A program made the position numbers and the translations under genes. A DNA stretch of 59,782 bases, taken from IMG/VR virus record IMGVR_UViG_3300028840_006308, positions 1 to 59,782 of that record; one strand, given 5' to 3'. The stretch is from a virus (lineage: Duplodnaviria; Caudoviricetes). The notes beneath the pieces are model-generated. The model had not been told where the DNA came from. It worked only from the letters and a program-made list of their open reading frames with translations, and searched no databases. How positions within the stretch are numbered: the first letter of the stretch is position 1; each line of letters starts with the position of its first letter. Positions 8,764 to 56,693 of this stretch are shown here, one piece after another.

Positions 8764-8988
8764 GTGACTAGCGGATACCGCGCGATACGCTGTAAAGCCT
8801 GTAATAGATCCCTCTTCCGCGTTCACGCGGGAGAGGGTTTCATTTCCCTGTCGATCAAGTGTCCCTCGTGCAAGGCCAAAGAGCACATCACCATCCGGGA
8901 CTTTACCCCCACAACCGAGCGAATGAACCCAACAGGAGAAGGCGATGTCCTTCCTCGAATCCATTCCTGCGGGGCGGCCGGGAACTAG
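8764..8988 (+). CDS. Mu Com-like zinc-finger protein
   Basis: IRCKACNRSLF...IKCPSCK resembles the Com pattern IRCxxCxxLL...IxCPxC; overlaps the start of the next gene. Confidence 0.7.
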   Translation: MTSGYRAIRCKACNRSLFRVHAGEGFISLSIKCPSCKAKEHITIRDFTPTTERMNPTGEGDVLPRIHSCGAAGN

Positions 8989-9460: not shown

Positions 9461-9462
9461 GC

Positions 9463-13127: not shown

Positions 13128-13136
13128 GGAGGTCCC

Positions 13137-13790
13137 ATGGCGAAGCGTAAGCTACCCGATCACGTTGATAAGTGGTTCAAGACGCGCGCGGAGGCCATGG
13201 CCTACAAGCGCAAGGTGGACAAGACGGGCCGCGTGGCGACCTTGCCCCGGAAGTTCAAGGGCAAGTGGATAGTCCGCTCGACGCGTCACTCCCTGAAGGC
13301 TCCGTCGCTCTGGAGCATCCGCCAGGCGGAGAAGCGCGCGGCGGCCAAGCGGAAGGCCAAGCGCAAAGCCTCTAAGCCCAAGAAGGCCAAGGGGAAAGCG
13401 AAGAAGGGCAAGAAGAAGGCCCGTCGTAACCCCGGCACCAAGTTGTCGGCCGCCGATATGCAGGAGCTCATGAAGGATCCCGAGTTCAAGAAGGCCCTCA
13501 AGCTCTACCGGAAACTGCACGGGTGCGACCCCGAGAGCATCTCGCGCCGGGTACTTCCCATCGGCGGCAAGCGGGTCACCGGGCGCGAGTTCTTCGTTTC
13601 TATGGGAAAGGCGCCTGCGGAGAGCTACGAGCCCCACCAGAAGAACTCCAAGAAGAAGGGCACCATCTGGGTGCATCCCTACGACGACAAGCCGGAGAAG
13701 GTGGTTTCGGCCGATGGCAAGACCATCATCACGATGCCTGGTAGCCACGCGGTGCGGGTGATCGACGGCGAGGCGTGGATCGACGGATAG
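13137..13790 (+). CDS. Basic putative core protein
   Basis: K/A-rich linker ending in RRNP, followed by a globular domain. Confidence 0.7.
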   Translation: MAKRKLPDHVDKWFKTRAEAMAYKRKVDKTGRVATLPRKFKGKWIVRSTRHSLKAPSLWSIRQAEKRAAAKRKAKRKASKPKKAKGKAKKGKKKARRNPGTKLSAADMQELMKDPEFKKALKLYRKLHGCDPESISRRVLPIGGKRVTGREFFVSMGKAPAESYEPHQKNSKKKGTIWVHPYDDKPEKVVSADGKTIITMPGSHAVRVIDGEAWIDG

Positions 13791-13850
13791 GCTTTCTGGC
13801 AAGGAACGTCAAGACAGAGCCAAGAAAAGGAGAAACAAGGCATTTCAGGC

Positions 13851-13880
13851 TTGACTCGGTAGCCCCGCGCACTGTAAACT
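13851..13880 (+). promoter_or_regulatory. Sigma70-type promoter for the core/capsid genes
   Basis: TTGACT-18 nt-TAAACT. Confidence 0.6.
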
Positions 13881-13934
13881 ACCTGCGGAGCGAGTTAGAG
13901 CCCAAACAACGGACATCCAAGTAGGGCCGTAGAG

Positions 13935-13986
13935 AGCCCCGCGATCTGAGGCGCACGACGCCTCCTTTCGCGGGGCTTTTTGTTTT
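13935..13986 (+). terminator. Terminator-like hairpin in the leader of the core/capsid operon
   Basis: AGCCCCGCGA (13935-44)/TCGCGGGGCT (13968-77) followed by a T tract, just before the RBS at 13988. Confidence 0.65.
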
Positions 13987-13998
13987 GGGAGGTTTTCG

Positions 13999-15099
13999 AT
14001 GGCAGTCGAGGCAGTCGTGCTCAACCACCCCCGGGGAAAGGTGAGGCTAACCAAGAAGGAGCTCCACGCTCTCGCTGGCTGGCCAAAGCTGAACCCCAAG
14101 GGCGGGGGCACCAAGAGGAGGAAGAAGGGAATGAAGAAGAACAAGTCCGGTGTCCCCAAGAGCGCCCGGGGCAAAGCCTACCGCAAGGTGGTGAAGAAGT
14201 ACGGCGTGATCGAGGGCGCGAAGAAGTGGCGGAGCATGAAGCGCAAGCCGAAGTTCGCGGCCAACATCATCACGGGCAACCGCAAGCCCAAGCGCCCGGC
14301 CAAGAAGAAGAAAAGCGTGAAGCGGAACTACGGCACCAAGAGCGGGTTCCGGAAGGCCGCCAAGAAGAAGGGCCTCACCGTCAAGAAGTACGCCAAGCGC
14401 ATCGGCCGCAAGGGCGGCAAGGCTCGCTGGGGCCTGAACAAGCCCGCGAAGCGGAACTACGGCGTTCGCCGCAACAAGGCCGGACTGGCCTCCTTCAAGA
14501 AGAGCTTCAAGGAGCTCCTTACGCTCGACACCCTGAAGGACGGGCTGCAGGTCGCCGGTGGTGGCATGCTTTCGGTCGCCGTCCCGAACGTGGTCCTGGG
14601 CCTCAAGGCGCTCGAGGGCAAGGTCCCCGAGGTTCTGACCAAGGGCTGGGGCAAGTACCTGGTCAACCTGGTGGCCGTGGGCCTGACCAGCGGGACCGCA
14701 TCGTTCTTCGGCCAGACCAAGCTGGCCAAGAACTTCCTCCTGGGTGGCGTGGCCGCCACGCTCAACAGCGTGATCCTCGACCAGGTCCACGTCCAGGCTA
14801 AGAAGAACCCGTCCGGCGTAGCGGCCAAGGTCGCCGCGGCTGTCGCCCCCGGCGGCACCATGGGCATCCTGACCCAGGACGTCGAGCAGGCGGTGGAGCA
14901 GGCGGTCGAGGCCGAGCTGCAGCGCCAGGGCCTGAGCGACTACCTGGTCCCCGAGGAAGCCGCGAACCCCGCGCTGAAGGACTACCTGGTACCGGCCGAG
15001 GTGGTATCGCCCACCATGGCCGACTACCTGACCCCCGCCGAGGCGGTTAACCCCGCGCTGGGCATCGTTACCGACGCAGACGCCGTAATGGCTTTCTGA
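13999..15099 (+). CDS. Putative major core/membrane protein
   Basis: Basic N-half with KRNY/KKNP motifs, hydrophobic middle, acidic C-terminal repeats LSDYLVP/LKDYLVP/MADYLTP. Confidence 0.7.
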   Translation: MAVEAVVLNHPRGKVRLTKKELHALAGWPKLNPKGGGTKRRKKGMKKNKSGVPKSARGKAYRKVVKKYGVIEGAKKWRSMKRKPKFAANIITGNRKPKRPAKKKKSVKRNYGTKSGFRKAAKKKGLTVKKYAKRIGRKGGKARWGLNKPAKRNYGVRRNKAGLASFKKSFKELLTLDTLKDGLQVAGGGMLSVAVPNVVLGLKALEGKVPEVLTKGWGKYLVNLVAVGLTSGTASFFGQTKLAKNFLLGGVAATLNSVILDQVHVQAKKNPSGVAAKVAAAVAPGGTMGILTQDVEQAVEQAVEAELQRQGLSDYLVPEEAANPALKDYLVPAEVVSPTMADYLTPAEAVNPALGIVTDADAVMAF

Positions 15100-15803: not shown

Positions 15804-15830
15804 AGTGGGGGCCTTCGGGCCCCCACTTTC
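15804..15830 (+). terminator. UUCG hairpin/terminator after the candidate capsid gene
   Basis: AGTGGGGGCC-TTCG-GGCCCCCACT then TTC. Confidence 0.7.
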
Positions 15831-15897
15831 CCCTCCGGCCCATACAAAGGAACTTCTTTCGTCTGGGTGGCTTTTTAGCCGGAAAGGAGTCGCAGAG

Positions 15898-16773
15898 GTG
15901 GCTAGAGTCAGTTCGTTCGTTCGTAACGCCGGGGGCAAGCTGGTCCCCAACCCTTCCAAGCTAGACGTCCAGTCCTTCTACCTGGTACCCGACAACCCCA
16001 ACAATCCGGTCACGGTCGGTGCGGGCGCAACCAGCCCGCCCATCCTCTTCACCGTAGGCCAGGACGGCCCCTTCGAGGGGTTCTACCTGACTCACGAGAA
16101 GACGAACCAGACCCTCATGACCGTGGACATCTACGATGAAGCGGCGCGCCGCCACCTGATGAACCGTCCGGTGCACATCGACACGATCATGGGCCAGACG
16201 CTTACGGCGGTGGGCCCCCGCGCCGGTGGTATCGGGCCACATCTCTTCGCCGAGACGCTCTTCATGCAGACCTCTCGGTCGCTTTCGATGACATTCGTCG
16301 ACGGCGCGGCCGGGAACACGGTCTGGCCCTCGGTGGTGGGACGGCGCTTCTACAACTACGCAAATCCCAGCGAGTCGATGGCCATGGCCGTCGAAAAGCG
16401 CGGAGCGCGCGCTCGCTTCTCGACTCCGTACTTCCTGACCACGACCGAGGACGTTTCGGTCGCGGGCGCGGCCACGGGACAGCAGTTCTTCCTGCAGGTC
16501 ACGCCCGAGGCGCACTTCGAGTGGTTCAAGCTCATGGTCGTCTCGACCGGCGCCTTCTCCTTCAGGCTGTACGACGCCCGCAATAACCGCGCCATCACCA
16601 ACGACTTCATCCACGTGAGCGCGGCGGCGGGCCAGGCGTCCTTCCCGATGGTGTTGCCCGAGCCCATCCTCTACCAGGCCAACACCCGCCTGCGCCTTGA
16701 GATAAACGAGCTCAGCGGCGCGGCGAACGACATCTACTTCACGATGGGCGGGAGGCGCATCTATGTCGCATGA
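15898..16773 (+). CDS. Tandem beta-domain protein (double jelly-roll-like capsid component)
   Basis: GTG at 15898 after AAAGGAG; two similar domains of about 130 aa ending VGRRFY and GGRRIY. Confidence 0.6.
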   Translation: MARVSSFVRNAGGKLVPNPSKLDVQSFYLVPDNPNNPVTVGAGATSPPILFTVGQDGPFEGFYLTHEKTNQTLMTVDIYDEAARRHLMNRPVHIDTIMGQTLTAVGPRAGGIGPHLFAETLFMQTSRSLSMTFVDGAAGNTVWPSVVGRRFYNYANPSESMAMAVEKRGARARFSTPYFLTTTEDVSVAGAATGQQFFLQVTPEAHFEWFKLMVVSTGAFSFRLYDARNNRAITNDFIHVSAAAGQASFPMVLPEPILYQANTRLRLEINELSGAANDIYFTMGGRRIYVA

Positions 16774-33681: not shown

Positions 33682-34473
33682 CTAGTCGCCCTCCTGAAAG
33701 AACATCGTGAATTGGTCCTCATCTTGTTTCGCGTAGGCGCTATCGCGGTCCAGCCACCATTCCCAATACTCCTCAGCACTGGCGAACTTCGCGCGCAGGG
33801 CTTCGCTCTTCGTGTAGAACTTGAAAGCCGCACGGCGCGTGGCCTCCCATATCCCGGGCCACAGATCCATGCCCTCTGCAATTCGTCGCTCGCTGGGGCA
33901 GATAACGCATCCCAAGCGTTTCCAGCCATGATCGTAGAGCTCGCAATAGGGCAATCCACGGTCGCGGATGAACCACCACACCATCTCCTCGGTCCAGTGC
34001 TTGATGGCATGGAAGAAGGTGATGCTCCCATCCTTCATACATGCCTCTACTTGGCGGCGATTCTTGCGGCGGGGGCTTTCTTCGCTGCGAATTCCGGTTA
34101 TGACCCGTCGACCGGCCCCAGCCCCATCTTTGTACTCATCGCAGCACCACTTTCTCCGGTGAAGCGGCAGACCGCGCCGAGCTATCTGTGTGAATATGCT
34201 TTGCCCATTCTTGGGTCTCTCGAACCTCACGTCGGGGTGCTCCCTCCGGATGAACTTGATCAGCTCGGGGGGGTCGCATGTGGTTACGTTGTAGTGCGCA
34301 TCGAACTTAACTCCGGCCTCAACGGCCAGCTGCTTGATAGAGATGGAATCCTTGCCCCCACTGAACGCCAGCCAGTAACCCTCATCTGGCTCAAACTCCC
34401 GCAGAAGGTCGATGCTCATCTGCACGGGGCACCGGTCGAATAGATCCACGAAGGGTGAGGGGCGCGTTGTCAT
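33682..34473 (-). CDS. PAPS-reductase-family (PP-loop) protein
   Basis: AFSGGKDS, KWCCDEYK, GIRSEESPRR, RLGCVICP. Confidence 0.88.
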   Translation of the reverse strand: MTTRPSPFVDLFDRCPVQMSIDLLREFEPDEGYWLAFSGGKDSISIKQLAVEAGVKFDAHYNVTTCDPPELIKFIRREHPDVRFERPKNGQSIFTQIARRGLPLHRRKWCCDEYKDGAGAGRRVITGIRSEESPRRKNRRQVEACMKDGSITFFHAIKHWTEEMVWWFIRDRGLPYCELYDHGWKRLGCVICPSERRIAEGMDLWPGIWEATRRAAFKFYTKSEALRAKFASAEEYWEWWLDRDSAYAKQDEDQFTMFFQEGD

Positions 34474-35291
34474 GCGGGCACGCCCCTCTTGCGCATGATG
34501 CTGCGGGTTGCCGCCGGGCGCGCCCAGCCCCGTTGGAACTTGTGCCATTCCGGATCGGTGTCGCCCTTGCCGTTCTTATAGAGCATGGCCATGGGCATGA
34601 ACCCCGCCTCCCAAGCCTCCACCAGGCGCTTTTCGGCGGCCTTCATGGTATCCTTCGGCCATCCCATCAGCACGTAGCATCGGAGATGACTACGAGTGAA
34701 ATCCGCGTATTGCAGCAGCTTGGCCGCCTCTACAAGAGGCTCCAGGTCGTCGGGCGTATCATAGGCAAAGAACATCTGCGATGGGCGAACCTCCCACAGG
34801 GCATTCACGTGCCAAGGCTTGAGGCGCGCGGCCTCCAGTCCTCCTGTAAGCTCGATGCGGCGGTTCTGCCTGCCCAGCATGGACATCACCTTAAGGATAT
34901 GCTCTTCTGAGCACGCTAGGAGATTGCTATCGAGCAGGTTCCAACCGTCGTGAACTTCCAGCTCGCGGATGCCACCCTCTCGCTTGGGGACATCGCAGAA
35001 CCAGCAATTGTTCGGGCATCCCCGGCTGGTGATGACGTAGCCCTCTTTCAGGTACTGACCGGGCACGAACGCGCCGCCGGGGTCGCCCAGGGCGGGTCCG
35101 CCCATCTTGACCGGCGCCACACGCTCCCAGTCCTTGGCCAACTCTTCTGCCTTGGGGATGTCGTAGCTGAAAGCTACCGATATGTGTACCTCATCGGCCT
35201 CGGAGTACATATCGGGGGGCCCAAAGTAGGCGAGATCGTCATCGGGGCTGGCATGCGTCTTTCGGGGAAAGACCCGAACAATGCGACTCAT
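34470..35291 (-). CDS. Radical SAM protein
   Basis: TSRGCPNNCWFC (CX3CX2C). Confidence 0.85.
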   Translation of the reverse strand: MSRIVRVFPRKTHASPDDDLAYFGPPDMYSEADEVHISVAFSYDIPKAEELAKDWERVAPVKMGGPALGDPGGAFVPGQYLKEGYVITSRGCPNNCWFCDVPKREGGIRELEVHDGWNLLDSNLLACSEEHILKVMSMLGRQNRRIELTGGLEAARLKPWHVNALWEVRPSQMFFAYDTPDDLEPLVEAAKLLQYADFTRSHLRCYVLMGWPKDTMKAAEKRLVEAWEAGFMPMAMLYKNGKGDTDPEWHKFQRGWARPAATRSIMRKRGVPA

Positions 35292-37357
35292 GCCCTTTTC
35301 TCCCTGTAGCTATTGAGGTCCGTCCCGCACTTAGGGCACCAGCGCAGGCGCCCTGTGCCCCGGCATTCTGTACAGATGAGGTATTCCTCGCCAGGCGCGA
35401 AATTCACCGCGTCCTCCTCGTGTTCGTCAACCCATCCATCCTCACACAAGAGGTTGTCGCAGCAGCGCGTGTGCGTGGGATGTTGGCCGCACTTGGGGCA
35501 GACGACCTCGAGAAGCTCGTAGTCATCCATTGCGCTCGGCCTCGGATATCATGGCCAGAATTACATCACAGGCCTCTGTGTGTTTCTTGAACATTGGGTT
35601 ATCGAGGCTCTTCTGGCACCAACACAGGCGGCCGTTATCGAGCCTGCCCTGGTCCTTGAGTAGCTTGATCAATGTCTTTTCTCGGAGGAGCGCGCACTCC
35701 AACTTGGCGTGGAGCTCCTCATACTGGTCTTGCAGCTTATCGGCCACCTCTCTCCACTTCCCGATCTCGCCCCGTAGCGCAGGCAACAGCGGGCAAACAG
35801 CCGTGTGGCACTCGGGGCCTGGGTTGTCCTCATTGCAGCAAAGAGAACCGGGGCCATTGGCGTTCCAGTGATGGCAGGTCACTTCTTCTCCTTGTATTCG
35901 TGACCAGTCATCCGCGGGTCTCCGCCTCCACTCGTGGAGCAACGCGAAAGGATTTGCAGATATCCACCTTGGTGCCGCATTCCGTGTACTGGTCCGCGCT
36001 CGTCTGGGCAACGACAGGACAATGCTTCAAGAAAGCCCATATGGCCACCGTGGCTTTCTCCACGTAAAGAGGCAGGGATTGATTGCCAATTTTCTCCCAC
36101 CAGCCTGATGGGGGCTCCTGGTCCATCCCCAGCATGCCCCACGCGCGAAGGTCCCGCACTAAGAGGGCCCTCCCCGCATCTTCCAGCTTCTTGCACACTT
36201 CGCTGGGGATATCCTCCCGCGTTGGCAAATTCATCGCCATTACTTCTTCTCCTTCTCCCTCGGCGGACGAATCTCCACTACGTGGCCCCCGAAAGCCGGG
36301 CACTGCTTGCTGGGCCGGAAACTGGCGTTCATCCAGCCCATGGAGCAGGTTCGCATGTTGTAGGCGCTGCTCCAGCCGCAGGCGAAGCACGTCTGGCTGC
36401 ACTTGCCGTCCTTGCGGACCAGGGCCCGGAGTATCTTGGGCTTGTTGTCGAACTTGCCGGTCACTTCTTGGCCTTCCTCGGCACCAGGCGCTCGGGCTTC
36501 ACGTAGCGGACACGGCTGATGTGCGAGCGTCCCCGCCAGTAGCGGTCACCGAACACCTGCACCTTGGCGTTGCCGGTATCCGTATATCCCAAGAGCACGC
36601 AGGGCATGGTGTAGTTGGTCCGTGCCCGTCCGAGGCAATGGCTGCACTCAAGCTCGTGCGTGGCGTCGTCTATGGTGTATTCGGGCATCACGCCTCTTTC
36701 CCCAGCAGCTCGCGGATTTCCGTGAGCGTGCTCTTGCAATCGGGACAGTCGGCGATTTCGGGGTGGTTGTCGTGGACGTAGAGCACGTCCTCCAGCAACC
36801 TTCGCATGTCGTCGATCATGCGCCCCGCCCCGGCAAAGGACTCGGCCAACGCCTCACCGTAGCCCTCGGGCTCGATGTTGGTGTATATCCGGGCCACCTC
36901 GACGGCACCGAGCATCAGGTGCGTGTACCCGTCGCGCTTCTCGATCAACATCAGCTCACGCACTCCGGCCCCGTTACCCAGCTCGGCAACCATCTCGCTC
37001 GGGGTCATCTTCTTCGGGTAACGGCATCCGACCGCCAGCTCCGGTTCCGGATGCCACTTGTAGTCTACGGCTCCCATCTCATTCCTCCTCAAGTGCCTCG
37101 TCTGCCGCTTCGCAGGCAGCCTTATAGTTAGCATTCGCGGTTGGTAAACTCGCCTCAGCACGATGGAAATAACGGAGCAAGATCATCTCCCGGACCGCCA
37201 CTATTTGAGCATCGCCCTCTTCGGTGCCTCCCTCAAACCAGAATGCCTCGAACGCGGCCATGTTGCCCTCGCGCACCTCGGCGGCGAGTTTCATAAGGGT
37301 CGCGGCGACTTGCTCGCAGTCCTTGGCCGCCAGCTCCTTCTGCTCCTTGAAGTCCAT
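35288..37357 (-). other. Run of about seven short ORFs, mostly Cys-rich
   Basis: Tiling ORFs 35288-35530, 35523-, 35908-, 36240-36464, 36461-, 36688-, 37079-37357. Confidence 0.55.
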
Positions 37358-37953
37358 CAGTCGCCCTCCCGATGCTTATCCTCTATCCGCCTGGCGGCTT
37401 CTATCTTCTTCGACTCGTCCATGTGCACGTATATCTCGGTGCTCTGCGTGGTCGTATGCCGGAGCTCGTCGCGCACCGTCACCATGTTACGGGTCTCGTT
37501 CCAGAGCTCCAAGCCCCGGTGATGACGCAGGGCGTGAAAGGATACACCCTCGGGCAGGCCCGCTTTCCGAGCGCACCACTTGAAGATGCGGTCGGCGGTG
37601 CGGGAGCTGATGTGGTCATGACCTCTTCCGGGGAAGAGGTACTGCTGGCGCGCAGGCATTCTCTTGAGATAGGCCGAGAAGAACTTCCGCGCGAAGTCCC
37701 CGATGTGTACGGGGAGCTCGGGCGTATCCTGGCGCTTGAGCGTTGGGATGTAAACGGCGTTCTCGGACAGGTACCGGAAACAGTGGCGGTCGAGGGCCAC
37801 GGCCTCGTTGATGCGTAAGCCCAGGGTCCCGGCGGCGTACAGGAGCGCGTAGGCGTAGGGCCAGGGCGATTTCTTGGCCGCACGGACCAGCTTCTCGAAT
37901 TGCCCGCGGTCGAGGTATTTGTCGCGGTTGCGCTTGCGCTGGCCTTTAAGCAA
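37357..37953 (-). CDS. Tyrosine recombinase, catalytic domain only (about 198 aa)
   Basis: GLRINE, TLK, FHALRH, LRH...TEIY: full R-K-H-R-H-Y set; TTG start after GAGGAGG. Confidence 0.88.
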   Translation of the reverse strand: MLKGQRKRNRDKYLDRGQFEKLVRAAKKSPWPYAYALLYAAGTLGLRINEAVALDRHCFRYLSENAVYIPTLKRQDTPELPVHIGDFARKFFSAYLKRMPARQQYLFPGRGHDHISSRTADRIFKWCARKAGLPEGVSFHALRHHRGLELWNETRNMVTVRDELRHTTTQSTEIYVHMDESKKIEAARRIEDKHREGD

Positions 37954-40900
37954 CGGGATCGGCCTCCTCATGGAGCGCCAAGTAGACCCGGGCACAGTCG
38001 CCCATTGTTTTCATGTCCTTCTCCGCACCGGCGGTTTCGGACGAATCGTAGCCATGCTCCAGGCAGGACTTACGAAAGGCGGCCTCGGCTTCCTGCAGGT
38101 TATACAGAACCTGCTCCGCGGTCGCTACCCGCATCCGCAGCTCCTCGTTTGCATCCTGGGATATCTCGAGACGCTCTTCAAGGTGGTCGATAGTAGCGAA
38201 GATGCGCGCCTGCCACTCGGCCTTGGCCATCATGCGCGGGTCCTTGCGGATGAAGGCCACCTGCTTGGCGTTGAGGGGCTTGACGCCGGTCATTTCTTGC
38301 CCTTCGGATACATTGCCCTGTCCTCGGCCTTGGCCTTGTCCTCGAGGAAGTCCGCGATGGCGGCTCCAACGCCCTCCTCGCGCAGCAAGGCCGCCGCATC
38401 GCGCAGGAGGTGGCCATGGGAGAAATAGCTCAGGTTGAGGGCATCGTAGGCCGCCCCGGCGAATTCTATCCGCTCGCGGACCTTCTGGGCGATGGGTCCC
38501 CAGTCGGGGATGCCTCCGAGGGCGCTTCCCACCTCGTTGACCGTTACTCGCTGGGTCTTGGCCTCGGTCGCCCAGACTTGAGCTTCGAGGAGCATGATGT
38601 CGCGCTGTTTCTCCGCCTCGGCGAGGCGCTCGTTCGTTTCCTTCCACTGCTTGCCCACCTGCCGCGCGCAGGGGCCGCACATCATCTCACCCGGGGGTTC
38701 GGACTCGTCCATCAGGGGCACCGCGCAGTGGTCGCAGCACACCGTGCTGAGGAAGTTATCGACGTCCTCGGGCTTGTAGACCCCGCACAGGTCCGATAAC
38801 TGCTTCTCGAGCTTCTCCAGCGCATCGGCCAGGGGCGTCACCAAGTTCAAGAGCGCAACGGAACAATCCTCAACCACGTCATGATCTTCGTGGGAGCTAG
38901 CCGTGTCGGCCACGGCGTTGAGACGGCGAGCTTCTGCGATGAGCTCCTTAGTGGTCATGGCGTTCATCCTTCCCGCCCGGCAACCGTGCGCAGTGCCAGG
39001 TTGTGGACGCGGGACACGCCCGCGTTGGTTTCGTCGCCTGTTTCGGGCAGAACCATGGCGTTCAAGTCCACCTCACGCACCGAATCGGCCATCTCGCCAA
39101 TCATGCGAACGGCCTCCTTGTCGCCACCCCCCGATGTCCACATTCGACGTATGGTATGCAGCTCACCCGCGACAAATTTGTCCGGGGCGCTTAGGCTGAG
39201 CTTCTCCCAATCTTCGGGCACCTCGATGATCACAAGGCGGGGCAGGGGCTTTTCCTCGGCGTCCATTTTCTGTTATCCCCTCTCTTCCTTATCCAACCCC
39301 AGATGCCGACGAGCGGCTCTGGATAACTCCAGGCATGCCTCAGACGGGTGTATGTCCCTGGCACAGAATGCCCCTGCCAGGCGGGGCTCGCTTAACAGTT
39401 CGGTGGGCACCAGCGTGAGGCGTCCCGGCCCCGGACAAGTGGAGCCGTCCTCGCATCCTGTCAGGCGGCAAAAGCCATACTTGTCGTTGAACCAGGGACA
39501 GTCGTCGCACTCCAAGTACTCGATTACTATTTCGGCTAGACTCATACCTTAATCTCCAAGGCTACGGAGAACGTCGGTGTCGATCCGTCGTATCCCGCAA
39601 AGAAGGCGAACATCGAAACCCACAGCTCGTCGCAGATGCAGTCGCAACGACAAGCGGGGGCTACGCTCCGGCACATTTCCAAGACCAGGTCGGCTATAGC
39701 TAGCGTGCGGTCCGCGCCGATCATCAAGTCCAGCAGGCCCTGGATGGCATCGCTATCGATCTTCACTTGTTCTTCCTCCTGTTTCGGGGCTTGGCGATGC
39801 CCTCATTCTCGATGCGGCGAATAAGGCGCTGGATCCGATGGCTGATGACGGTCGCATGCCTCTCCAGCCAGTCGTCATCGGCCCACAAAGCCTCCAGTAT
39901 CTTCTTGGCCGACTTTCCGCGCGCCTGCTGGTAGTTGAGGAGCTCCCAGCTGTCATCTCCAATAGCCGCCGCCTCGCGGTCTATTTCATCGCGAGTGATA
40001 GGCTCTTCGCTCACTTGCCCTTCCTCCTCTTTACCACGAGCTCTATCGCCTTGGCCTGCTGCGGCGTTCGGATAATCCCCTTGGGGCACCCGACGGTTCT
40101 TCCTGTGAACCAGCACATGTTGCAAGCCGCCAGCGCCAGGCGCTCTTCTTTGTGCATACCGCTAAGCGGGCCCTTGTTGCTGTATCGCGGTGGTTCCGGC
40201 CAACAGGGGCGTCCCCACAGGACTATCGGGGTGTTCTTCACTTGCCCTTCCTCCTCTTCCGCGCGTTTTCGATTATCTTGTCGGCCTGGGGCCAACTGCC
40301 CTCCACGATGCTCTTGTAGTAGTCGCGGTCCATCTCGACGTGGGCGAGCTCCTCGGCAAGCTCCAAGAGGAAGGCGTACATCTCGCCTTTGGAGGCCGCC
40401 ATGACCTTCCTGATCTTACGGATGCGCTGGCAAAGCGGACAGGTGCAGTCCTTGAGTTTCTTGGGCATCAGACAGCTCCGCACAGGGGACAGTCCCCATC
40501 AAGATGGGCTTCTTGGCATTCGATGGCCGCGTATAGGTAATCGTCACCGCATAATGTCTTCGCGGCATCCACCTTCCACCAGGGCACAGATTCGAGCCTG
40601 CGGATAACCTCAGCATCTAGTTTTCTCCGGCGCATGGCCCGCTTCAGGAATATCACCGCCGAGAGGAGAAAGACGACCATCACAGTCGCAAGAACCACCC
40701 TGCTCTTAAGAGCGGAGGCAATCATCAGGGCCATGCTCGACAACGATAGGATGTAGTAGGGCCAGTCCAAGGGAATGGAATCAAGCTCGCCCTTAATGAG
40801 CCAGATTTCGCGGTCGCGCACCTTCATCTTAGTAGTACCCCAGGAAGCTCATCGTCACACGGCCGTGGACCTTGCAGGTCGCGTTGTGCTCCATCTTTAC

Positions 40901-44027: not shown

Positions 44028-44348
44028 CTAATAGCGTAAACCCTTGAGACTGCGGCCTGCACGGAAGGATACGGTTCTGCTTTCAGGGACGGCCTTTGCC
44101 TGGCCCTTAGGGGCCTTCACGCGCCTTTTGGCCCACCCCCGGGGCCGAAAGCTACCAAAGCCCCTCAACTCAACACAGTGGCCTTTCTGCAGGGCGGAAA
44201 CCAACTCGTCCAGGAATGCGTTCAAGACGATCCGCACGGGCTCGGCCTTTACGTCAAGAGCCTCGGCCGCCCGGCGGCACAGCTCCCGCTTGTGGACCGT
44301 AACCTTCGCGGCCTTGTTGCGCTTGATGACCCACTTGGGCTTAGGCAT
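44028..44348 (-). CDS. HU/IHF-family DNA-binding protein
   Basis: KRELCRRAAE...VELRGFGSF...VPESRTVSFRAGRSLK. Confidence 0.9.
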   Translation of the reverse strand: MPKPKWVIKRNKAAKVTVHKRELCRRAAEALDVKAEPVRIVLNAFLDELVSALQKGHCVELRGFGSFRPRGWAKRRVKAPKGQAKAVPESRTVSFRAGRSLKGLRY

Positions 44349-44630
44349 CGGTGTTCTCCTCGGACTCCAAGGGCAGCATCTCCAGCAGGAGGTCGCGCAG
44401 GATTAACGCATCCTCCATATCAAGGAGCAATTCCCCGCCATCGCGGACCACGCTCTCAACTCGCAGGGCTTCTCTTCCTTGCCAGCTCTCGACAAACTCA
44501 AGATTGAAGTGAAGCGTGCCGGACGAGTCAATGAACGCCCCTGCCTGGGGTTTCTGGGTCTCTAGCTCTCGTCGCAGTGCCGCGAAACGCTGTCCCCAGG
44601 TATTCGGCTTAGGCATCGGTGTTCTCCTCG
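44338..44630. repeat. 25-bp direct repeat flanking ORF 44341-44616
   Basis: GGCTTAGGCATCGGTGTTCTCCTCG at 44338-44362 and 44606-44630. Confidence 0.9.
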
Positions 44631-46378
44631 TCGCGCCATTCTCCAAGCATGGTGAGTATAGGCAGAACCGCCCGCACCGCATCTCGGATAGTCTCGTGGC
44701 CATCGCCATCGTAATCCTGCCGGTGCAAGAGAATGACCGCCGCCCTCCGAAGCTCCACTAATATGCCGTACAGGGGCAATGGGGTGTCCAGGCGCAGCAA
44801 CCTTTCAAGGCGGCGGCTGGCCCGAAGTTCCGGCGCGTTGACGTGCATCGTGAGCTCATCTAGCCTCTCCCGCATCGCCCACATATCAAGCCAGGCGTTC
44901 TTGAGCCACTCGTCGTCCTTTTCGGTGGGAGTGGGCGAGCGCTCCTGGTCCATCACCGCATCCATGCGGGCATAGATGTCCTCGAGTTTCCGGCCTGCCG
45001 CTCTTTCCAACATCACGGACTCCTTGTAGACCCTGGCAAACTTCTCGGCCAATTTCCCTGCCTCGCCATCGGGCACCTCGCACGTTAAGAGCGGACGATT
45101 GCGGGGATCTTGGAAGAAGCATAACTCCTTGGCCATCGAGGTTACTCCTTGGCGGACGATTCGATCTCCGCCCTTATCTTCATGGCCTGATAGGTATCCA
45201 GCGACATGATCATCAGCCCGTACTCGGCCTGTAGGTTGTCGCCGCAGGCCAGGCATACGTGCGGGCAGGTCATCACGAACGAGTCGGGGTTGCCGCAGAA
45301 CAAGCAGGCCTTGGGGTCGTGTTTAGTCATTGGAGCCTCCCACCGCGATGTTCTCTATTTCCTCGCGCGTCTTGGAACGCTCCAGGGCCATCTGGATGCC
45401 AATGAGGTGCGCCCGGCAACGCATGGATACCATCTTGCCCGGCAATTCTACATCCCACCAGTCGGGGCCTAAGACATACTGGCCATGCTCGCGGATCCAG
45501 ACGTCCCAGTAGAACTCCGACTCCATGTGCGAAAGCATTCGCAGTTCTTCGGCCTTATCGACGGCCTTCTGGTTGTCCTCCTCTCGCTGCGTCTTAACCC
45601 ACCACTCGTACCAGCGCTCGGCCTCGCGAGTGTTCCATTCCCGGTGGCCTTTCCCATTTTCGCTGGCCTCGCACTTACTAGCGAAGTAGTCGATGCCACA
45701 GCCCGCCAGGAAGTCCCAACTAATGGGGCCGCTCCACCAGTAGGTGGCGCATCCCAGGTCGCCGCGAACTACCAGCCACCGGTCGTCCATGATGGTGTAG
45801 AGCACGCGGTTGCACCAGCTGTCGTCCGGTGTGCTCCATTTGAGGTGATGGCCGTGGTCGGTCTTCAGGAAAGAGGGCTCGTGGTCCTTGAACCAGGTCG
45901 TGCGAATTGTGTGGTCCATCTTCTCATAGGCGTCCATTGGTTTCCTCCTTCTTGCCTGTGCTTACTATCGGTCTTCGGGCTCTTTCGATGTCGCGAGTCT
46001 TATTCCATCGGCAGGTACTGCACTGGCGCGCTTCTTGAAATCCGGAGCATAGCGCACCGAACGATACCTCGCCCGGCTCATGTTCAGGGCACTTCTCCGG
46101 ACGATAGAGGTCCGTAGGGTTCTTGTTGCCGCTCAGGCGGGCGCAGAGGCGCGATACAAAGCTCATGCCTATCCTCCTCTTGGTCATCGCTGCCAAACCC
46201 TTATCAGGTTTACCAGCCAGAACCAGACTCGGTGCCGCATGCGAATGGGCGGCCGAGAGTACAACACTGGGCCATCGGCGAGGTACTGATAGCCATCGAG
46301 CGGTGCTGGGGCGTAGTTTGGCCATCGATACCAGCCGATGTCGTCGGTCGTCCAGGGGGAGCCCGGGTTATTTATCAT
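44341..46378 (-). other. Short hypothetical ORFs (44341-44616, 44609-45136, 45142-45330, 45323-45937, 45924-, 46184-46378)
   Basis: Tiling ORFs. Confidence 0.55.
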
Positions 46379-46745
46379 CCGTCTTCGATTCCTTCAACTT
46401 CATCGCCTGTTCCCAGGCAGACCGCAGGCCCTTGAGCACGCTCATGGCGTCATCTATCCGCTGGGGTTCCTGGTAGACGTTGGCCTCCACCAGGCGGTTG
46501 TAGGAGTAGGTGTAGAGGCTGGCCAGATTGTCGCCGATCTCACCTGCTTTCTTGCGGTCCAGGGCATACAGCAGCTCCATCACGATGTTCTGGGCCTTGG
46601 TCAGATGCTGGTGGGCGGCCTCCTTGTCTTTGCGCGCCATGGCCTCCTTGCCGTCCTGGCAGTACTTCAGGGCACCGTCGTAGAGCATCAGCACCAGTTG
46701 CTCGCGACTGGCATTCTGTATCTCGGTCTTGATGTCTTCGGTCAT
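46368..46745 (-). CDS. fliS: Flagellar export chaperone FliS homolog
   Basis: ASREQLVLMLYDGAL...KAQNIVMELLYALD...GEIGDNLASLYTY...RLVEAN...LRSAWEQ. Confidence 0.9.
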   Translation of the reverse strand: MTEDIKTEIQNASREQLVLMLYDGALKYCQDGKEAMARKDKEAAHQHLTKAQNIVMELLYALDRKKAGEIGDNLASLYTYSYNRLVEANVYQEPQRIDDAMSVLKGLRSAWEQAMKLKESKTDDK

Positions 46746-49700
46746 TTCTCCTTCTCCGCCAGGGCTGCAATGATGTCCTGCGCCATGTCATAGGCGCGCC
46801 GTTCGCCCCGTTTCAACCCCGCGTGCTTGAGCATATCGTGGAGCACCTGGATGCACGTCAGGCTCTTGCCCAGCAAACTGCGAAACGCACTCTCCCTCAA
46901 CCGCGACCGCTCCGCCTCGGCCTTTAGCCGCTGGAACCGGCCGTCTCGGCAGTCGCTGCACTTGCATTCGTTAGTCATGCGTCACCCCCGGCATTGGCGG
47001 CAACATGGTGCAGGCGTATCGCCCGGTCTATCACATCGCGCATGTCATCTCCCCACCTTTCGATGGTGTTGGGGTAGTATCCGTCCTCGTCGGCCTTGGG
47101 TCCGTGCGAGAGCGCCTCCTCGAGCGCCTCGCTTCGCACGACTACGCCTGGACAGTAGCTCTCGTCGCCCACGTCCTCTATCGATATGTATCGCAGGAGG
47201 AAGTCGAGACGCTCCTTGTCGGTACCACACTGTGAGTGCTTGATCCTTATCGGCATCTCAGGGCTCCTCGCGCTGGCGCTCTTTCGGCGCTTTGATTATC
47301 AGGTACTTGCCTATGGGAAGTGTGTTGATGTCGCCGCGCCACGTTTTGCTTGGGCTATCGTAGAATCCTCCGTTGCGGCCCATTATGCGATCATGCATCT
47401 CGAACACTTCCAGTTCCACGCTATCGCCCCGACCCTCTAGCTCTGTAATGGCTTGGAGTGCCTCCGTAAGCTGTGAATGTAGGCTGTCGCGTTCCTCGCG
47501 TAGCTTCTCAATCGCGGCATTGAGGAAAATGCAGCTCGCACACTGCGCATCCTTCCGGCAATGCTCGCACCCCATGCTTCCATAGTTCTCATAGCAGGAC
47601 TCCCCACACTTTTGGCATACTCTTGGCCAGTGCATCACTCAATCCCCACTTTCGACGTATACCGATGGCCCCCCTTAGGCCCCCCGCCAGGCAGGCGCAC
47701 GAGGTGGCCCCGCTTCCAGAGCTTGTGCAACCGCGAGCTGGCCTTGTTGCAGTCCATGCCTATCAGCTCGCTTACCTCCCATGCGGTCACCGGGCCGTGA
47801 CGAACCACGCACCAGTAGACCCGATGGGCCTGGCTGTTAGCCCTTAGCATGGGTCCCCTCGCGCGCGGCCAGCCACTTCTCGAAGTGTGGCCATATCGGG
47901 TGTTTCTCGCCGGGCTGGCGCTTCATCACCGCCCCGTCTTTGCGCAGGAACAAGGGACCCAGCCACTCGTTGAAGCTCCATCGGTACTCGCGGTCATTTA
48001 CGAACGCCGAGCCGAAGTCATCGTCCACGCAGATGAAACCGCAGGGGATCCTTATGCAGGCCATCGGCTAGTTCTCGGCGCATAGCTGGGCAAGAGTTCT
48101 CGGTTTGGGGCACAAACCCCTCGGGTGATAGGTATAACACCCCGTATCCTTGCCATCTATCAGGAGGGGGCGCGCCTCAGTGGGATACCCCAGCTCGCAT
48201 CCAGGACAGGGGCAACCCGCCCAGTCCCGGAGGGCGCGACAACCACCGCAGCTTCGGGCCTTGCGCTTCAGCATAGCTCCCTCGAAAGCCTCTCGGCCTC
48301 CCGCCTCTGCATGTCGGCGAATCTACGCAGGGCCCCGGAAAGGGCGTGGCGGTGTGCGAGCACAAATTGGGCGTACTTCATGACGCCATCACAGCGGCAG
48401 CAATGCACAACCAAGGTGCCCGCGAGCTCGCCCACCCCCACGGTCTCATTGGGGACCTGCCCTTCGGCTACCGGGGTGCCGTATTCCTTCCCGCAGAAAC
48501 CGCATTCGGCAGCATCGGTGCCGCCGTCGCAAACGGCCTCCATCAGACAATCAGCCATCATACTTAGTTGGCTCATGATCCTTTTTCCTCCCCGGCCTTC
48601 GGCTGCACATCATGCGGCCCCCACTCCACGTTGTGTCGCTTGCCCGTGTATCCGCACTCGTGGCATCCGCAGCCAAGGGCCACGCCATTCCCGTCAACGG
48701 GAGCGCCCTGCACAGGATGGCCGTCTATCGTCTCGTGACATCCGCTACACGGCGTGGTGTAGGCGAACCGCGTGAATAGCAGTGCCCCGCCGTAGCATTC
48801 ATCCGGCTGTCCATCATCCGTAGTGGCGTAGCGCCTGCGGCGGTCGAGTCGTTGTTCTGCGAGCTTTTCGGCCTCTTGAATCGTCAACTCTCGCATCATT
48901 CACCCCTTTACCAACGCACAATAATGTGCCTCACCGGACAGAAAAGTTGGCCGATGGCCACTGCAATCTCAGGGCCACATAGCCCCAGCACGTTCCCTGT
49001 CGCCGGTAGATCAGATCGTTTGCTGTCGACCTGCGTGCTGCCCCGGATGGTCATCGGGGGAGTTACCAGTGGAGGTTGTGTCGCTCGCATCGGCCTAATC
49101 CTTGATACAATCCCTGAGCTCCGCTTCCAGCTTGGCCACCTCGCGCTTCAGGCGCTTGAGCCGACGCCGCTTCGCAGCCTTCTCGGGTCCGCGACGTTTT
49201 CGGCCCTTGCGAGCCTTGGCAGTCCCGTCCAGGTAGCCTGCGCCATAGGAGAAGAGCAGGCAGCCCAGGCCCGCGATCATGGAAAGCGAGCGAGTTTGGG
49301 CATCTTGAAAGCGCTCTATCGGGTCCATCACTCCTCCTCTTTCGGCACCAGCTCCCCGCACTGCGGGCAGTAGGTGCCCTCGCGGGAGATGCTCTTTGCG
49401 TCCTTGGCGTCGAAGTTGAGCTCGCACTTCGGGCATACGTAGTAACCCACCGACAGGAACCACGTGCCGTCCTGGGCGTAGAGGTGGATGTCCTCGAAGT
49501 GCGGGGCGAAGTGCGTCAGGGCCTGCTCGGCCTCGTCGCGGTCCAGGCCCTCGGGGTTCTTCTCGTCGAGGATACCCACGATGCGCCTTAACTCCTTCAC
49601 CCGCTTGGGCAGGCGCGAGTTGGCGTAGGCGGCGAAGGAACGGATCCTCACGAGTTACCTCAGCTCCCTGCGGCCCGTCTTGAGGTCTGCCCCAATCTTG

Positions 49701-56340: not shown

Positions 56341-56693
56341 TGGTGGAGGCGGGGGGAATCGAACCCCCGTCCCAGCCTGTAGTCCGGTGCGCGTCTACGT
56401 GTGTAGTCAGAGATTCATTCTCGCCCGTCGTGATCCTGCTCCCTGCTGGCTCGGCTATGGGCACAGCCCCACATTTGCGGGACCAGTCAGCGGTCTTTCC
56501 GTCGCCGTCAGCCACAGTGCGGCGCCCGTCCCGAAGTCGTGGCCCCCTATCGGGCGGACGGATGGCTAAGCAGCCATCTTGAGCGGTGTGCGCTCGGCAG
56601 TTCTTTTTGCAATCGGCTTTTAACGAGGCCTGCCGATCAACCTCGACACGCGGCAACACCATCCCATCAAGCGGTCGAAACCATTTCGCCCCC
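56341..56693 (-). ncRNA. ssrA: tmRNA, 353 nt; tag (A)AERTPLKMAA
   Basis: 5' GGGGGCG...TTCGAC; 3' GGTTCGATTCC...CGCCTCCACCA with G3-U70; tag reading frame 56598-56566. Confidence 0.93.

What the first reader, a model, noticed from the sequence alone, without database searches (positions are those of the whole stretch)
46368..46745. Virus-encoded FliS flagellin chaperone with a shortened N-terminus
Seen: a full FliS core embedded among early ORFs with no other flagellar genes; it starts only 11 residues before ASREQL and lacks the N-terminal Tyr segment. Known: FliS binds the flagellin C-terminus, interacts with FlgM in some bacteria, and its N-terminus caps the binding pocket. Inference: a decoy that sequesters flagellin to stop motility or exclude flagellotropic competitors. 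I know of no described phage FliS, but this needs a search.
Basis: partly seen in the sequence, partly recalled or inferred. Interest (0 to 1): 0.75.

Follow-up and report, generated by a model that had tools for sequence, protein, structure and literature searches.

The report
Virus FliS lacking its export-gate docking tyrosine
A 60-kb virus, probably of Planctomycetia bacteria, carries a copy of the flagellin chaperone FliS that keeps the flagellin-binding core but lacks the short N-terminal piece that normally docks the chaperone to the flagellar export gate, so it may act as a viral brake on flagellum building.

Summary
ORF 46368-46745(-) encodes a 125-aa FliS: Pfam PF02561 122 bits and TIGR00208 91 bits, both over cut-off. 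The window is a complete 59,782-bp virus record with 144-bp terminal repeats. It has no flagellin, FliD, FlgM or FlhA.

The closest relatives are Planctomycetia FliS (54-64% identity, 142-149 aa). Compared with them the viral protein lacks 7 N-terminal residues and the C-terminal tail. It has Asp where nearly all FliS have a Tyr. That column holds Tyr in 76 of 82 viral and metagenome FliS ORFs and in 80 of 80 loci from species genomes.

By alignment this is Tyr10 of B. subtilis FliS. Published work shows that the N-terminal helix and its Tyr dock FliS-flagellin onto FlhA and are not part of the flagellin interface.

The six Tyr-less FliS are all orphans. They include one from an unrelated 416-kb megaphage. 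Of the five with enough flank, none has a flagellar neighbour, against 50 of 56 Tyr-bearing ones.

Best reading (about 0.5): a dominant-negative chaperone that holds flagellin but cannot deliver it. Binding and phenotype are untested. I found no paper describing a phage FliS. I rate it a new variant of a known kind, interest about 0.7.

The parts
46368..46745 (-). fliS-like gene: 125-aa FliS core without the N-terminal FlhA-docking Tyr segment and without the C-terminal tail of Planctomycetia FliS
   Evidence: Pfam 122.1 bits and TIGR00208 91.4 bits. Alignment A1. PDB FliS chains at E 1.8e-16 to 3.5e-08.
46733..46745 (-). First residues of the protein (M-T-E-D, then I-K-T). Asp4 sits in the column that holds the conserved Tyr of cellular FliS.
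   Evidence: Alignment A1. HMMER alignment to B. subtilis FliS, query 8 = chain 14, so query 4 = chain 10. Column counts.
46746..46760 (-). Shine-Dalgarno-like GGAG/AAGGAG directly upstream of the ATG
   Evidence: Read from the sequence. Function is inferred.
46742..46978 (-). Upstream 78-aa ORF of unknown function. Its TGA overlaps the fliS ATG (ATGA), which suggests translational coupling.
   Evidence: No Pfam family.
46184..46378 (-). Downstream 64-aa ORF of unknown function. Its start overlaps the end of fliS by 11 nt.
   Evidence: No Pfam family.

Best explanation
The gene is a true homologue of the flagellin export chaperone FliS. It was captured from a Planctomycetia-type host and is kept as an accessory gene in the leftward block of small ORFs of a roughly 60-kb, probably temperate virus. 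It retains the helical core that binds the C-terminal part of flagellin. It has lost the N-terminal segment with the conserved Tyr, which cellular FliS uses to dock the FliS-flagellin complex onto the FlhA ring of the flagellar type III export gate. The N-terminal helix is also autoinhibitory in free FliS, so its loss should leave the binding site open. The proposed mechanism: on expression the viral FliS competes with host FliS for newly made flagellin and holds it in complexes that cannot be delivered. Filament growth stops, and so does new flagellar motility. Shown here: homology, anatomy, orphan context, rarity of the Tyr loss, purifying selection and a convergent second virus. Taken from the literature: what the helix and Tyr do. 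Inferred and untested: flagellin binding by this protein, failure to dock, and the benefit to the virus (resource saving, blocking flagellum-dependent superinfection, or changing host behaviour).
For: (1) It is FliS by two curated models. All 15 invariant columns of a 17-sequence alignment are kept.

(2) The closest relatives are Planctomycetota/Planctomycetia FliS: 58-64% identity, 142-149 aa, and MAG genomes at 54-60%.

(3) Host FliS reads KEYLKT where the virus reads TEDIKT. Seven further N-terminal residues and about 20 C-terminal residues are absent.

(4) The Tyr column is near-universal. It holds Tyr in 76 of 82 FliS ORFs from 80 metagenome loci, one viral locus and the window. It holds Tyr in 80 of 80 loci of species genomes: 79 by regex plus L124 by eye. 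It holds Tyr in 134 of the best 150 representatives, with 12 more unparsed.

(5) Published function, from passages I read. The FliS N-terminal helix is the primary FlhA_C site. Tyr10 is essential and 'absolutely conserved'. The helix is buried and autoinhibitory until FliC dislodges it (PMC5932034). [quoted passage not shown]

(6) The six Tyr-less FliS are the window, L002, L005, L011, L013 and L014. All lack flagellar neighbours. Among loci with at least 1500 nt of flank, 0 of 5 Tyr-less ones have a flagellin/FliD, FlaG or Maf-like neighbour, against 50 of 56 Tyr-bearing ones (Fisher p 7.8e-5; rows are related, so this is not a true probability; cluster identities).

(7) Convergence. An unrelated 416-kb record with a terminase match carries a 123-aa FliS with only 14 residues before the LMLYDG motif and a stop codon directly before its ATG. 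That record has no flagellin, FliD, FlgM or FlhA.

(8) Purifying selection. dN/dS is 0.13 for L011-L013 and 0.27 for window-L005. Cellular pairs give 0.17-0.40. dS is about 0.75-1.3, so near saturation.

(9) The gene is embedded rather than freshly captured or chimeric. It has overlapping start and stop with its neighbours. Its GC3 of 0.82 is like the viral neighbours, against 0.85-0.90 in host fliS. The same 4-kb stretch is held with 0 differences in 56-kb contigs of two runs, which may be the source. A 461-nt contig from a third study bridges 46433-46893.

(10) Complex prediction with the C-terminal 86 residues of a Planctomycetia-type flagellin gave 'weak support'. The score was 0.48 against a best control of 0.03. 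That mark was reached by 58 of 80 solved complexes and 2 of 110 mismatches, but at 0.60 or under by only 7 of those 80 and by both mismatches. The runs agree in at least 85% of contacts, and partner pLDDT is at least 81. FliS-flagellin complexes are solved, so this shows likeness, not binding.
Against: No experiment or expression data exist for this gene. The complex prediction is only weak and may come from the model's memory of solved complexes.

Flagellin itself contributes contacts to FlhA_C in B. subtilis (PMC6070490), so loss of the FliS helix might weaken docking rather than abolish it.

The flagellin used was a stand-in from a metagenome contig, not the true host's.

The link between Tyr loss and mobile context is not perfect. 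L015/P0039 groups with the Tyr-less forms and shares an upstream gene with L005, yet keeps the Tyr. Its contig is only 1,033 nt.

The viral nature of L005, L011, L013 and L014 rests on weak signs: a few PHROG hits and one shared gene with the window.

A relative of this virus, G002 (capsid-like protein 53% identical), has no FliS. The gene is therefore dispensable for the lineage.

For P0031, P0033, P0037, P0038 and P0041 no DNA could be fetched, so their starts and contexts are unchecked.
Confidence: 0.5

Rival explanations
1. Regulatory decoy. The viral FliS acts mainly on another FliS partner, such as the anti-sigma factor FlgM or a co-chaperone, rather than on flagellin. It would retain that partner in the cell and shut down late flagellar gene expression.
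For: H. pylori FliS binds a further partner, HP1076, but I saw only the title of PMC7248283 in the listing. The phenotype would be the same as under the best explanation, namely less flagellum.
Against: No FlgM was found in the virus. I did not test whether the presumed hosts have FlgM. This reading does not explain why precisely the FlhA-docking segment is lost in two unrelated viruses.
Confidence: 0.12
2. Re-purposed chaperone. The FliS core now holds a viral client, for example a virion or membrane protein with an amphipathic C-terminal helix, and has nothing to do with flagella.
For: Export-gate docking is no longer needed for such a role, which would explain the loss of the Tyr segment. 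The gene sits among unknown small ORFs. The virus has many proteins of unknown fold.
Against: No flagellin-like protein is encoded: Flagellin_N and Flagellin_C are absent. Different Tyr-less FliS sit in different gene neighbourhoods without a shared partner gene across window, L005, L013/L014 and L002. The core stays as conserved as in cellular FliS, which suggests the same client.
Confidence: 0.12
3. Passenger gene. A recently captured host fragment with no selected function, truncated by the capture.
For: FliS is absent from the related virus G002. It is very rare in IMG/VR by my pattern scans: one other record.
Against: It is only 54-64% identical to the nearest cellular FliS. Its codon composition is like the viral neighbours. 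It has coupled start and stop with its neighbours. dN/dS is 0.13-0.27 among Tyr-less forms. L011, L013 and L014 keep it in a syntenic block at 49-76% identity.
Confidence: 0.1
4. Ordinary helper. The virus supplies a working FliS to boost flagellin export and keep the host motile.
For: Curated equivalog model TIGR00208 is passed.
Against: The docking Tyr is Asp and the helix is truncated. The equivalent laboratory mutants are null for export (PMC6070490).
Confidence: 0.04
5. Artefact. The record is a chimeric assembly or a non-viral element, so the gene is simply bacterial.
For: The large ORFs of the + strand block have no PHROG, Pfam or GenBank-phage match. No terminase match was found.
Against: The record has 144-bp direct terminal repeats and is classed by IMG/VR as complete. 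Contigs of runs from three studies hold the stretch or parts of it. The exact protein was seen on 3 contigs. It has an integrase, a DNA methyltransferase and PAPS-reductase-like PHROG hits. It has a capsid-like double beta-sandwich protein with relatives on 61-66-kb contigs. The nearest language-model clusters are 95-100% viral. No flagellar gene neighbours were found.
Confidence: 0.05

Closest known systems
Cellular FliS of Planctomycetota/Planctomycetia (flagellin export chaperone, PF02561/TIGR00208)
   Same: They share 54-64% identity over the whole helical core, and all family-invariant residues are kept.
   Different: The viral protein lacks 7 N-terminal residues, has Asp in place of the conserved Tyr and has no C-terminal tail. 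It has no flagellin-FlaG neighbours, whereas L003 and L012 show flagellin-FlaG-FliS. It sits in a virus.
Laboratory mutants B. subtilis fliS delta2-18 and fliS Y7A,Y10A, and Salmonella FliS Tyr10 variants
   Same: The same region is removed or changed. By the HMMER alignment, the viral Asp4 falls on B. subtilis residue 10 and Met1 on residue 7.
   Different: Those are engineered loss-of-function alleles that replace the only fliS copy (PMC6070490; PMC5932034). The viral gene would act alongside an intact host fliS, so any effect must be dominant. That has not been tested.
FlaG of Campylobacter jejuni, an antagonist of FliS-flagellin docking to FlhA
   Same: It is a natural protein that limits filament growth at the same step, delivery of FliS-flagellin to FlhA (PMC11536152; only the listing and start of the abstract were seen).
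   Different: FlaG is a host protein of another family that competes at FlhA. The viral FliS would compete for flagellin instead.
Phage-encoded TldR and phage flagellin (flagellar remodelling by temperate phages)
   Same: A temperate phage manipulates the host flagellar filament (10.1101/2025.07.22.666180, passages).
   Different: TldR acts on transcription and swaps the flagellin. The words FliS and chaperone do not occur in that text.
Phage inhibitors of type IV pili used for superinfection exclusion
   Same: Small phage proteins disable a motility organelle that also serves as a phage receptor (PMC11436027, passages).
   Different: They target a different organelle and belong to unrelated protein families. 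They are not derived from a host assembly chaperone.

Membership tests
FliS (Pfam PF02561; NCBIfam TIGR00208 equivalog) | Profile match above the curated cut-off over the whole domain | tested here: met
   122.1 bits against 26.7, and 91.4 bits against 53.75.
FliS (Pfam PF02561; NCBIfam TIGR00208 equivalog) | Conserved helical-core residues shared by FliS of many phyla | tested here: met
   All 15 invariant columns of A1 are kept. It aligns to solved FliS of B. subtilis, Salmonella, H. pylori and A. aeolicus. Partner pLDDT is at least 81.
FliS (Pfam PF02561; NCBIfam TIGR00208 equivalog) | N-terminal helix with the conserved Tyr that docks to FlhA_C | tested here: not met
   Asp stands in the Tyr column and 7 residues are missing. 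The column holds Tyr in 76 of 82 and 80 of 80 comparison ORFs. Its role comes from PMC5932034 and PMC6070490.
FliS (Pfam PF02561; NCBIfam TIGR00208 equivalog) | Gene next to flagellin, FlaG, FliD or other flagellar genes | tested here: not met
   None were found in the whole record. The neighbours are unknown ORFs, an HU-like protein and a wHTH protein.
FliS (Pfam PF02561; NCBIfam TIGR00208 equivalog) | Binds the C-terminal region of flagellin | tested here: inconclusive
   Complex prediction gave weak support: 0.48 against a best control of 0.03. Like complexes are solved, so the pass may come from memory.
FliS (Pfam PF02561; NCBIfam TIGR00208 equivalog) | Promotes flagellin export (chaperone function in vivo) | not testable with these tools
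   This needs complementation and secretion assays.
Double jelly-roll major capsid proteins (PRD1/STIV/PM2 type), considered for ORF 15805-16773 | Two stacked jelly-roll beta-sandwiches resembling known DJR capsid proteins | tested here: inconclusive
   The model has pLDDT 86.2 and pTM 0.83. VIA gives STIV MCP Z 11.0, PRD1 P3 Z 8.8 and PM2 P2 Z 8.6. Non-viral DUF2961 and glycosidases score Z 11.3-11.5. No packaging-ATPase Walker A was found in the block.
tmRNA (Rfam RF00023), for 56341-56693(-) | Covariance-model match above the gathering score over the full model | tested here: met
   123.5 bits against 47, model positions 1-374 of 374. ARAGORN also calls it.

The most novel reading that the evidence does not exclude
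Viruses of flagellated bacteria have turned the host's own flagellin chaperone into an 'anti-chaperone', at least twice independently: once in a 60-kb Planctomycetia virus lineage and once in a 416-kb megaphage. By deleting the FlhA-docking Tyr helix while keeping the flagellin-binding core, the viral FliS would trap flagellin in the cytoplasm and switch off filament assembly at the protein level. This would be the first viral inhibitor of cargo delivery to the flagellar type III export gate. It would also be a natural dominant-negative form of a type III secretion chaperone.
Probability: 0.4. Interest if true: 0.8.

Novelty: new variant of a known kind. Interest (0 to 1): 0.7.

Why it matters
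If true, this adds the flagellar export pathway to the list of host machines that phages disable with small proteins. The logic is clean: keep the client-binding half of a host chaperone and delete the targeting half.

It gives a ready-made natural separation-of-function allele for studying how FliS-flagellin is handed to FlhA. It also makes a concrete prediction that is easy to test: it binds flagellin, does not bind FlhA_C, and is dominant over wild-type FliS.

It bears on phage ecology. Flagella are receptors for flagellotropic phages, and flagellin is one of the cell's most abundant proteins. It also concerns Planctomycetia, whose viruses are almost unknown.

The surrounding virus is unusual in its own right. 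It has no recognisable tailed-phage genes, a capsid-like double beta-sandwich protein and its own full-length tmRNA.

Tried and rejected
The steps below led nowhere or were set aside.

- **Earlier findings.** As a result, the DNA context and start codons of P0031, P0033, P0037, P0038 and P0041 could not be checked.
- **Record-level flagellin search.** The genome search on 39 metagenome loci for flagellin was answered with an error because those records are not held. I replaced it with local clustering of neighbours.
- **Window + strand block.** PHROGs and Pfam gave nothing above a weak tail-fibre hit at E 5e-5. tblastn of the 622-aa and 497-aa ORFs against GenBank phages gave no match. PDB by sequence gave nothing.
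- **Fold search of the capsid-like protein.** Foldseek against PDB gave only generic beta-sandwich proteins at low TM-score. BFVD gave one unnamed viral protein at TM 0.59/0.66.
- **Packaging ATPase.** A Walker-A search of the + strand block found nothing.
- **Tree.** The careful tree did not finish in 288 s, so the quick IQ-TREE was used. Many forks are unresolved. Five identical rows (L034, L063, L070, L080, L082) were dropped, and sequences were trimmed to 24 residues before and 125 residues from the motif.
- **Representative search.** It collapses proteins at 50% identity, so it cannot count Tyr-less members. Of the best 150, 134 have Tyr, 1 has Phe, 1 has Cys (L005 type), 1 has Lys (15-residue N-terminus), 1 is a fragment and 12 were not parsed by my regex.
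- **IMG/VR scans.** They rest on one or two peptide patterns of the LMLYD type. FliS of other sequence types in viral contigs would be missed. 'One other viral record' is therefore a lower bound.
- **GenBank 'phage' hits.** The three hits are UNVERIFIED human-faecal contigs with flagellin/FliD and FlaG beside Tyr-bearing FliS. They are ordinary flagellar loci and not evidence of phage FliS.
- **Sequencing runs.** No RNA holder was listed. In run X3 several parts of the stretch, including 46242-46375, had no cover. Neither says anything about expression or absence.
- **Promoter and terminator scan.** It was at chance level.
- **Paper supplements.** None were opened. They are closed and might list phage-borne flagellar genes that I could not see.
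- **Ideas rejected.** I rejected a working helper FliS because the docking Tyr is absent. I rejected a chimeric assembly because of the terminal repeats, the multi-run support and the matching codon composition.
Full report
**The observation.** The window is one complete IMG/VR virus record of 59,782 bp. It is classed as having direct terminal repeats and as 100% complete. I found the 144-bp repeat at both ends. ORF 46368-46745 on the minus strand encodes 125 aa. It matches Pfam FliS (PF02561) at 122.1 bits, E 1.8e-35, over profile positions 6-115 of 115. It matches the NCBIfam equivalog TIGR00208 at 91.4 bits against a cut-off of 53.75. It has no PHROG family. By sequence it also matches solved FliS structures of B. 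subtilis, Salmonella, H. pylori and A. aeolicus, at E 1.8e-16 to 3.5e-08.

**The start codon.** The start is firm. The 14 in-frame codons upstream, back to a stop, contain no ATG, GTG or TTG and nothing FliS-like. The ATG overlaps the TGA of the preceding ORF (ATGA), and GGAG/AAGGAG precedes it. The next ORF downstream overlaps the end of fliS by 11 nt. GC by codon position is 0.60/0.31/0.82, like the flanking ORFs.

**No other flagellar genes.** Six-frame searches of the whole record found no Flagellin_N, Flagellin_C, FliD_C, FlgM or FlhA.

**Is the assembly sound?** The exact protein is on record from 3 contigs. Logan contigs of 56,088 and 56,074 nt from two runs of two studies hold the whole stretch 44500-48500 with no differences. 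Either may be the source of the record, so they are not independent. A third study holds pieces at 99% or more. One is a 461-nt contig that bridges 46433-46893, that is, the fliS start and the upstream ORF.

**Is it a virus?** The record carries these viral or mobile-element signs:
- a tyrosine integrase (phrog_216, E 1.3e-26);
- a DNA methyltransferase;
- a PAPS-reductase-like protein and a radical-SAM protein with PHROG matches;
- an HU-like and a small wHTH protein beside fliS.

The + strand block 6336-28224 has no match in PHROGs, Pfam or GenBank phages. A language-model search places the 622-aa ORF nearest to clusters that are 95-100% viral, at score 0.90, which is a lead only.

ORF 15805-16773 belongs to a family found on contigs of 59.8-66.4 kb. 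Its AlphaFold model (pLDDT 86.2, pTM 0.83) is a double beta-sandwich. It aligns to double jelly-roll capsid proteins: STIV Z 11.0, PRD1 P3 Z 8.8, PM2 P2 Z 8.6. It aligns equally well to non-viral proteins at Z 11.3-11.5. I take the record to be a virus, possibly not a tailed one. I rate the chimera or non-virus reading at about 0.05.

**Where the gene came from.** The nearest proteins in the 5.8-billion-protein collection are 58-64% identical and 142-149 aa long, and one is named as a Planctomycetota MAG FliS. Among one genome per species, the nearest are MAGs titled Planctomycetia, Planctomycetota or Planctomycetales at 48-60%. In two such metagenome loci the gene order is flagellin(s)-FlaG-FliS.

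The virus also carries a full-length tmRNA (Rfam 123.5 bits). Its last 35 nt are identical to the tmRNA 3' end in 4 of the 5 genomes that hold the closest FliS, with 75-79% identity over the first 75-98 nt. None of 5 control genomes of other phyla reaches this; the best is 91% over 32 nt. Both lines point to a Planctomycetia-type host.

**What is different about the viral protein.** In alignment A1 the host proteins read KEYLKT where the virus reads TEDIKT. Seven further N-terminal residues and the roughly 20-residue C-terminal tail are missing. I scored the column 13 residues before the LxLMLYDG motif in every FliS ORF I could fetch.
- Window, viral and metagenome set: Tyr in 76 of 82 ORFs (80 metagenome loci, L002 and the window).
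- Loci of species genomes: Tyr in 80 of 80 (79 by regex plus L124 by eye).
- Best 150 representatives at 50% identity: Tyr in 134, with 12 unparsed.

By the HMMER alignment to B. subtilis FliS (query 8 = chain 14), this column is B. subtilis residue 10. In the Salmonella alignment (query 5 = chain 15), Tyr10 would lie before the first residue of the viral protein.

**What that segment does (from the literature).** These points come from passages I read with the find function.
- Xing et al. [quoted passage not shown] Ile7, Tyr10 and Val13 sit in the FlhA cleft. Tyr10 is essential for the ternary complex and 'absolutely conserved'. In free FliS the helix is buried as part of an autoinhibitory mechanism until FliC dislodges it.
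- Altegoer et al. (PMC6070490) show that B. subtilis fliS delta2-18 and fliS Y7A,Y10A phenocopy a fliS deletion for swarming and flagellin secretion. They state that these two tyrosines are not part of the flagellin interface.

The viral protein is thus a natural version of an allele known to separate flagellin binding from export-gate docking.

**The Tyr-less forms are orphans.** Six ORFs lack the Tyr: the window (Asp), L002 (Asn), L005 (Cys), and L011, L013 and L014 (Glu). I clustered all ORFs within 4 kb of fliS. I identified the large clusters by Pfam as flagellin plus FliD, FlaG, Maf-like and FlgN/FliT-like. Among loci with at least 1500 nt of flank on one side, 50 of 56 Tyr-bearing loci have a flagellin/FliD, FlaG or Maf-like neighbour, and 0 of 5 Tyr-less loci do. 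Fisher p is 7.8e-5, and 21 loci with shorter flanks were left out. The rows are related, so this is an association, not a probability. In the species-genome set, 73 of 80 loci have such neighbours.

L013 and L014 share at least five syntenic genes around fliS, and L011 shares one of these. L013 and L014 have a few PHROG hits. L005 holds a homologue of window ORF 8945-9460, 40% identical over 169 aa.

In a quick maximum-likelihood tree of 93 rows, 11 Tyr-less sequences fall into one 24-row group (aLRT 92). That group also holds L015 and the tight cellular Planctomycetia clade of 12 rows (aLRT 95). Resolution inside the group is poor. L002 sits apart on a long branch.

**An exception to report.** L015/P0039 groups with the Tyr-less forms and shares an upstream gene with L005, but keeps the Tyr. 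Its contig is only 1,033 nt.

**A second, unrelated virus.** IMG/VR record G001 is 416,024 bp, is classed as provirus and 99% complete, and has a Terminase_6N match. It encodes a 123-aa FliS (Pfam 110.9 bits). The gene lies between a DNA polymerase III alpha gene interrupted by NUMOD3 endonuclease genes and an amidase gene. Only 14 residues precede the motif, and a stop codon directly precedes the ATG. The record has no flagellin, FliD, FlgM or FlhA. Losing the same segment in a very different virus is the strongest hint that the loss is functional.

**How rare FliS is in viral collections.** A relative of the window's virus, G002 (66,427 bp, capsid-like protein 53% identical), has no FliS, so the gene is accessory. 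Two pattern-based scans of IMG/VR found only G001 besides the window. That is a lower bound. The three GenBank 'Bacteriophage sp.' hits are unverified contigs with ordinary flagellar loci and Tyr-bearing FliS.

**Is the gene under selection?** The protein keeps all 15 invariant columns of A1. Nei-Gojobori dN/dS is 0.13 for L011-L013 and 0.27 for window-L005. Cellular pairs give 0.17-0.40, with dS near saturation. GC3 of the viral gene (0.82) is like its neighbours rather than like host fliS at 0.85-0.90. This is not a fresh or decaying capture.

**Mechanism.** The best-supported reading is a dominant-negative chaperone. The viral FliS binds the C-terminal part of flagellin like any FliS, possibly with an always-open site because the autoinhibitory helix is gone. 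It cannot present the complex to FlhA, so flagellin is withheld from export and filament growth stops.

A complex prediction with the last 86 residues of a Planctomycetia-type flagellin gave 'weak support'.
- The score was 0.48 against a best control of 0.03.
- That mark was reached by 58 of 80 solved complexes and 2 of 110 mismatches. At 0.60 or under it was reached by only 7 of the 80 and by both mismatches.
- The runs agree in at least 85% of contacts, and partner pLDDT is at least 81.
- Because FliS-flagellin complexes are solved, this shows likeness only.

Binding, failure to dock and the phenotype are inferred. The benefit to the virus is speculation: saving the cost of flagellin, blocking flagellum-dependent superinfection, or holding the host in a non-motile state. 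The rival readings are a regulatory decoy acting on FlgM or another partner, a chaperone for a viral client, a passenger gene, a working helper and an artefact. They are weighed in their own sections.

**Comparison with what is known.** By homology the protein is a FliS. It fails two features that define the working export chaperone, the FlhA-docking Tyr helix and the flagellar gene context. I therefore file it as a variant of the family, not as an equivalog.

The closest functional analogies are these:
- the laboratory fliS N-terminal mutants;
- the host antagonist FlaG, which limits filament length by interfering with FliS-flagellin docking (PMC11536152; listing only);
- phage control of flagellin by TldR;
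- phage inhibitors of type IV pili.

Six literature searches and three papers searched for the word turned up no description of a phage-encoded FliS. I saw only listings and passages, and supplements were closed.

**Verdict.** I rate it a new variant of a known kind, interest 0.7, with confidence 0.5 in the dominant-negative mechanism. I rate at about 0.95 that this is a genuine, selected, virus-borne FliS lacking the docking segment.

Noticed in passing
window 56341-56693 (-): A full-length tmRNA gene lies inside the virus (Rfam RF00023, 123.5 bits, model 1-374; ARAGORN gives an odd 29-residue tag). Its last 35 nt are identical to the tmRNA 3' ends of 4 of 5 Planctomycetia-type MAGs. It is unlike 5 genomes of other phyla. 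Extra partial 3' copies in G005 and G006 look like attachment-site duplicates.
   Followed up: partly
window 6336-28224 (+), especially 15805-16773: The late block has no PHROG, Pfam or GenBank-phage matches and no terminase match. ORF 15805-16773 folds as a double beta-sandwich resembling double jelly-roll capsid proteins (STIV Z 11.0, PRD1 Z 8.8) but equally non-viral proteins. This may be a non-tailed virus of about 60 kb. No packaging ATPase motif was found.
   Followed up: partly
window 12090-15099 (+): Three consecutive proteins are very rich in Lys and Arg (K+R 0.20-0.30), with repeated AKKKK-type stretches (repeat family D1). Proteins 9415-10908, 10920-11654 and 11670-12086 end in hydrophobic, membrane-anchor-like tails.
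   Followed up: no
window 37357-37995 (-): A tyrosine integrase (phrog_216, E 1.3e-26). Together with the tmRNA it suggests a temperate virus that integrates at ssrA.
   Followed up: no
window 33682-35291 (-): Adjacent PAPS-reductase-like (phrog_424, E 6e-32) and radical-SAM (phrog_9298, E 2.7e-20) genes. They may be a DNA or nucleotide modification module.
   Followed up: no
window 44028-44348 (-): An HU/IHF-like DNA-binding protein (Pfam Bac_DNA_binding, 55 bits) lies 2 kb downstream of fliS in the same leftward gene block.
   Followed up: no
L002 4167-9873 (IMG/VR 416-kb record G001): A DNA polymerase III alpha gene is followed by two large ORFs with NUMOD3 homing-endonuclease motifs, directly beside the truncated FliS. 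An Amidase_3 gene lies just downstream.
   Followed up: no
L015 (1,033-nt metagenome contig) and P0039: A 128-130-aa FliS groups with the Tyr-less forms and shares an upstream gene with L005, yet keeps the N-terminal Tyr. It may be an intermediate or the cellular donor type.
   Followed up: partly
P0131-P0164 and loci L093, L096: Many Planctomycetota-type FliS are 170-320 aa long, with C-terminal extensions of 50-190 residues after the FliS domain. L005's FliS (215 aa) also has one. Their role is unknown.
   Followed up: no
window 40011-40065 and 40238-40292: A 55-nt direct repeat (71% identity), 227 nt apart, covers the ends of two small adjacent minus-strand ORFs. These may be duplicated small genes.
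   Followed up: no
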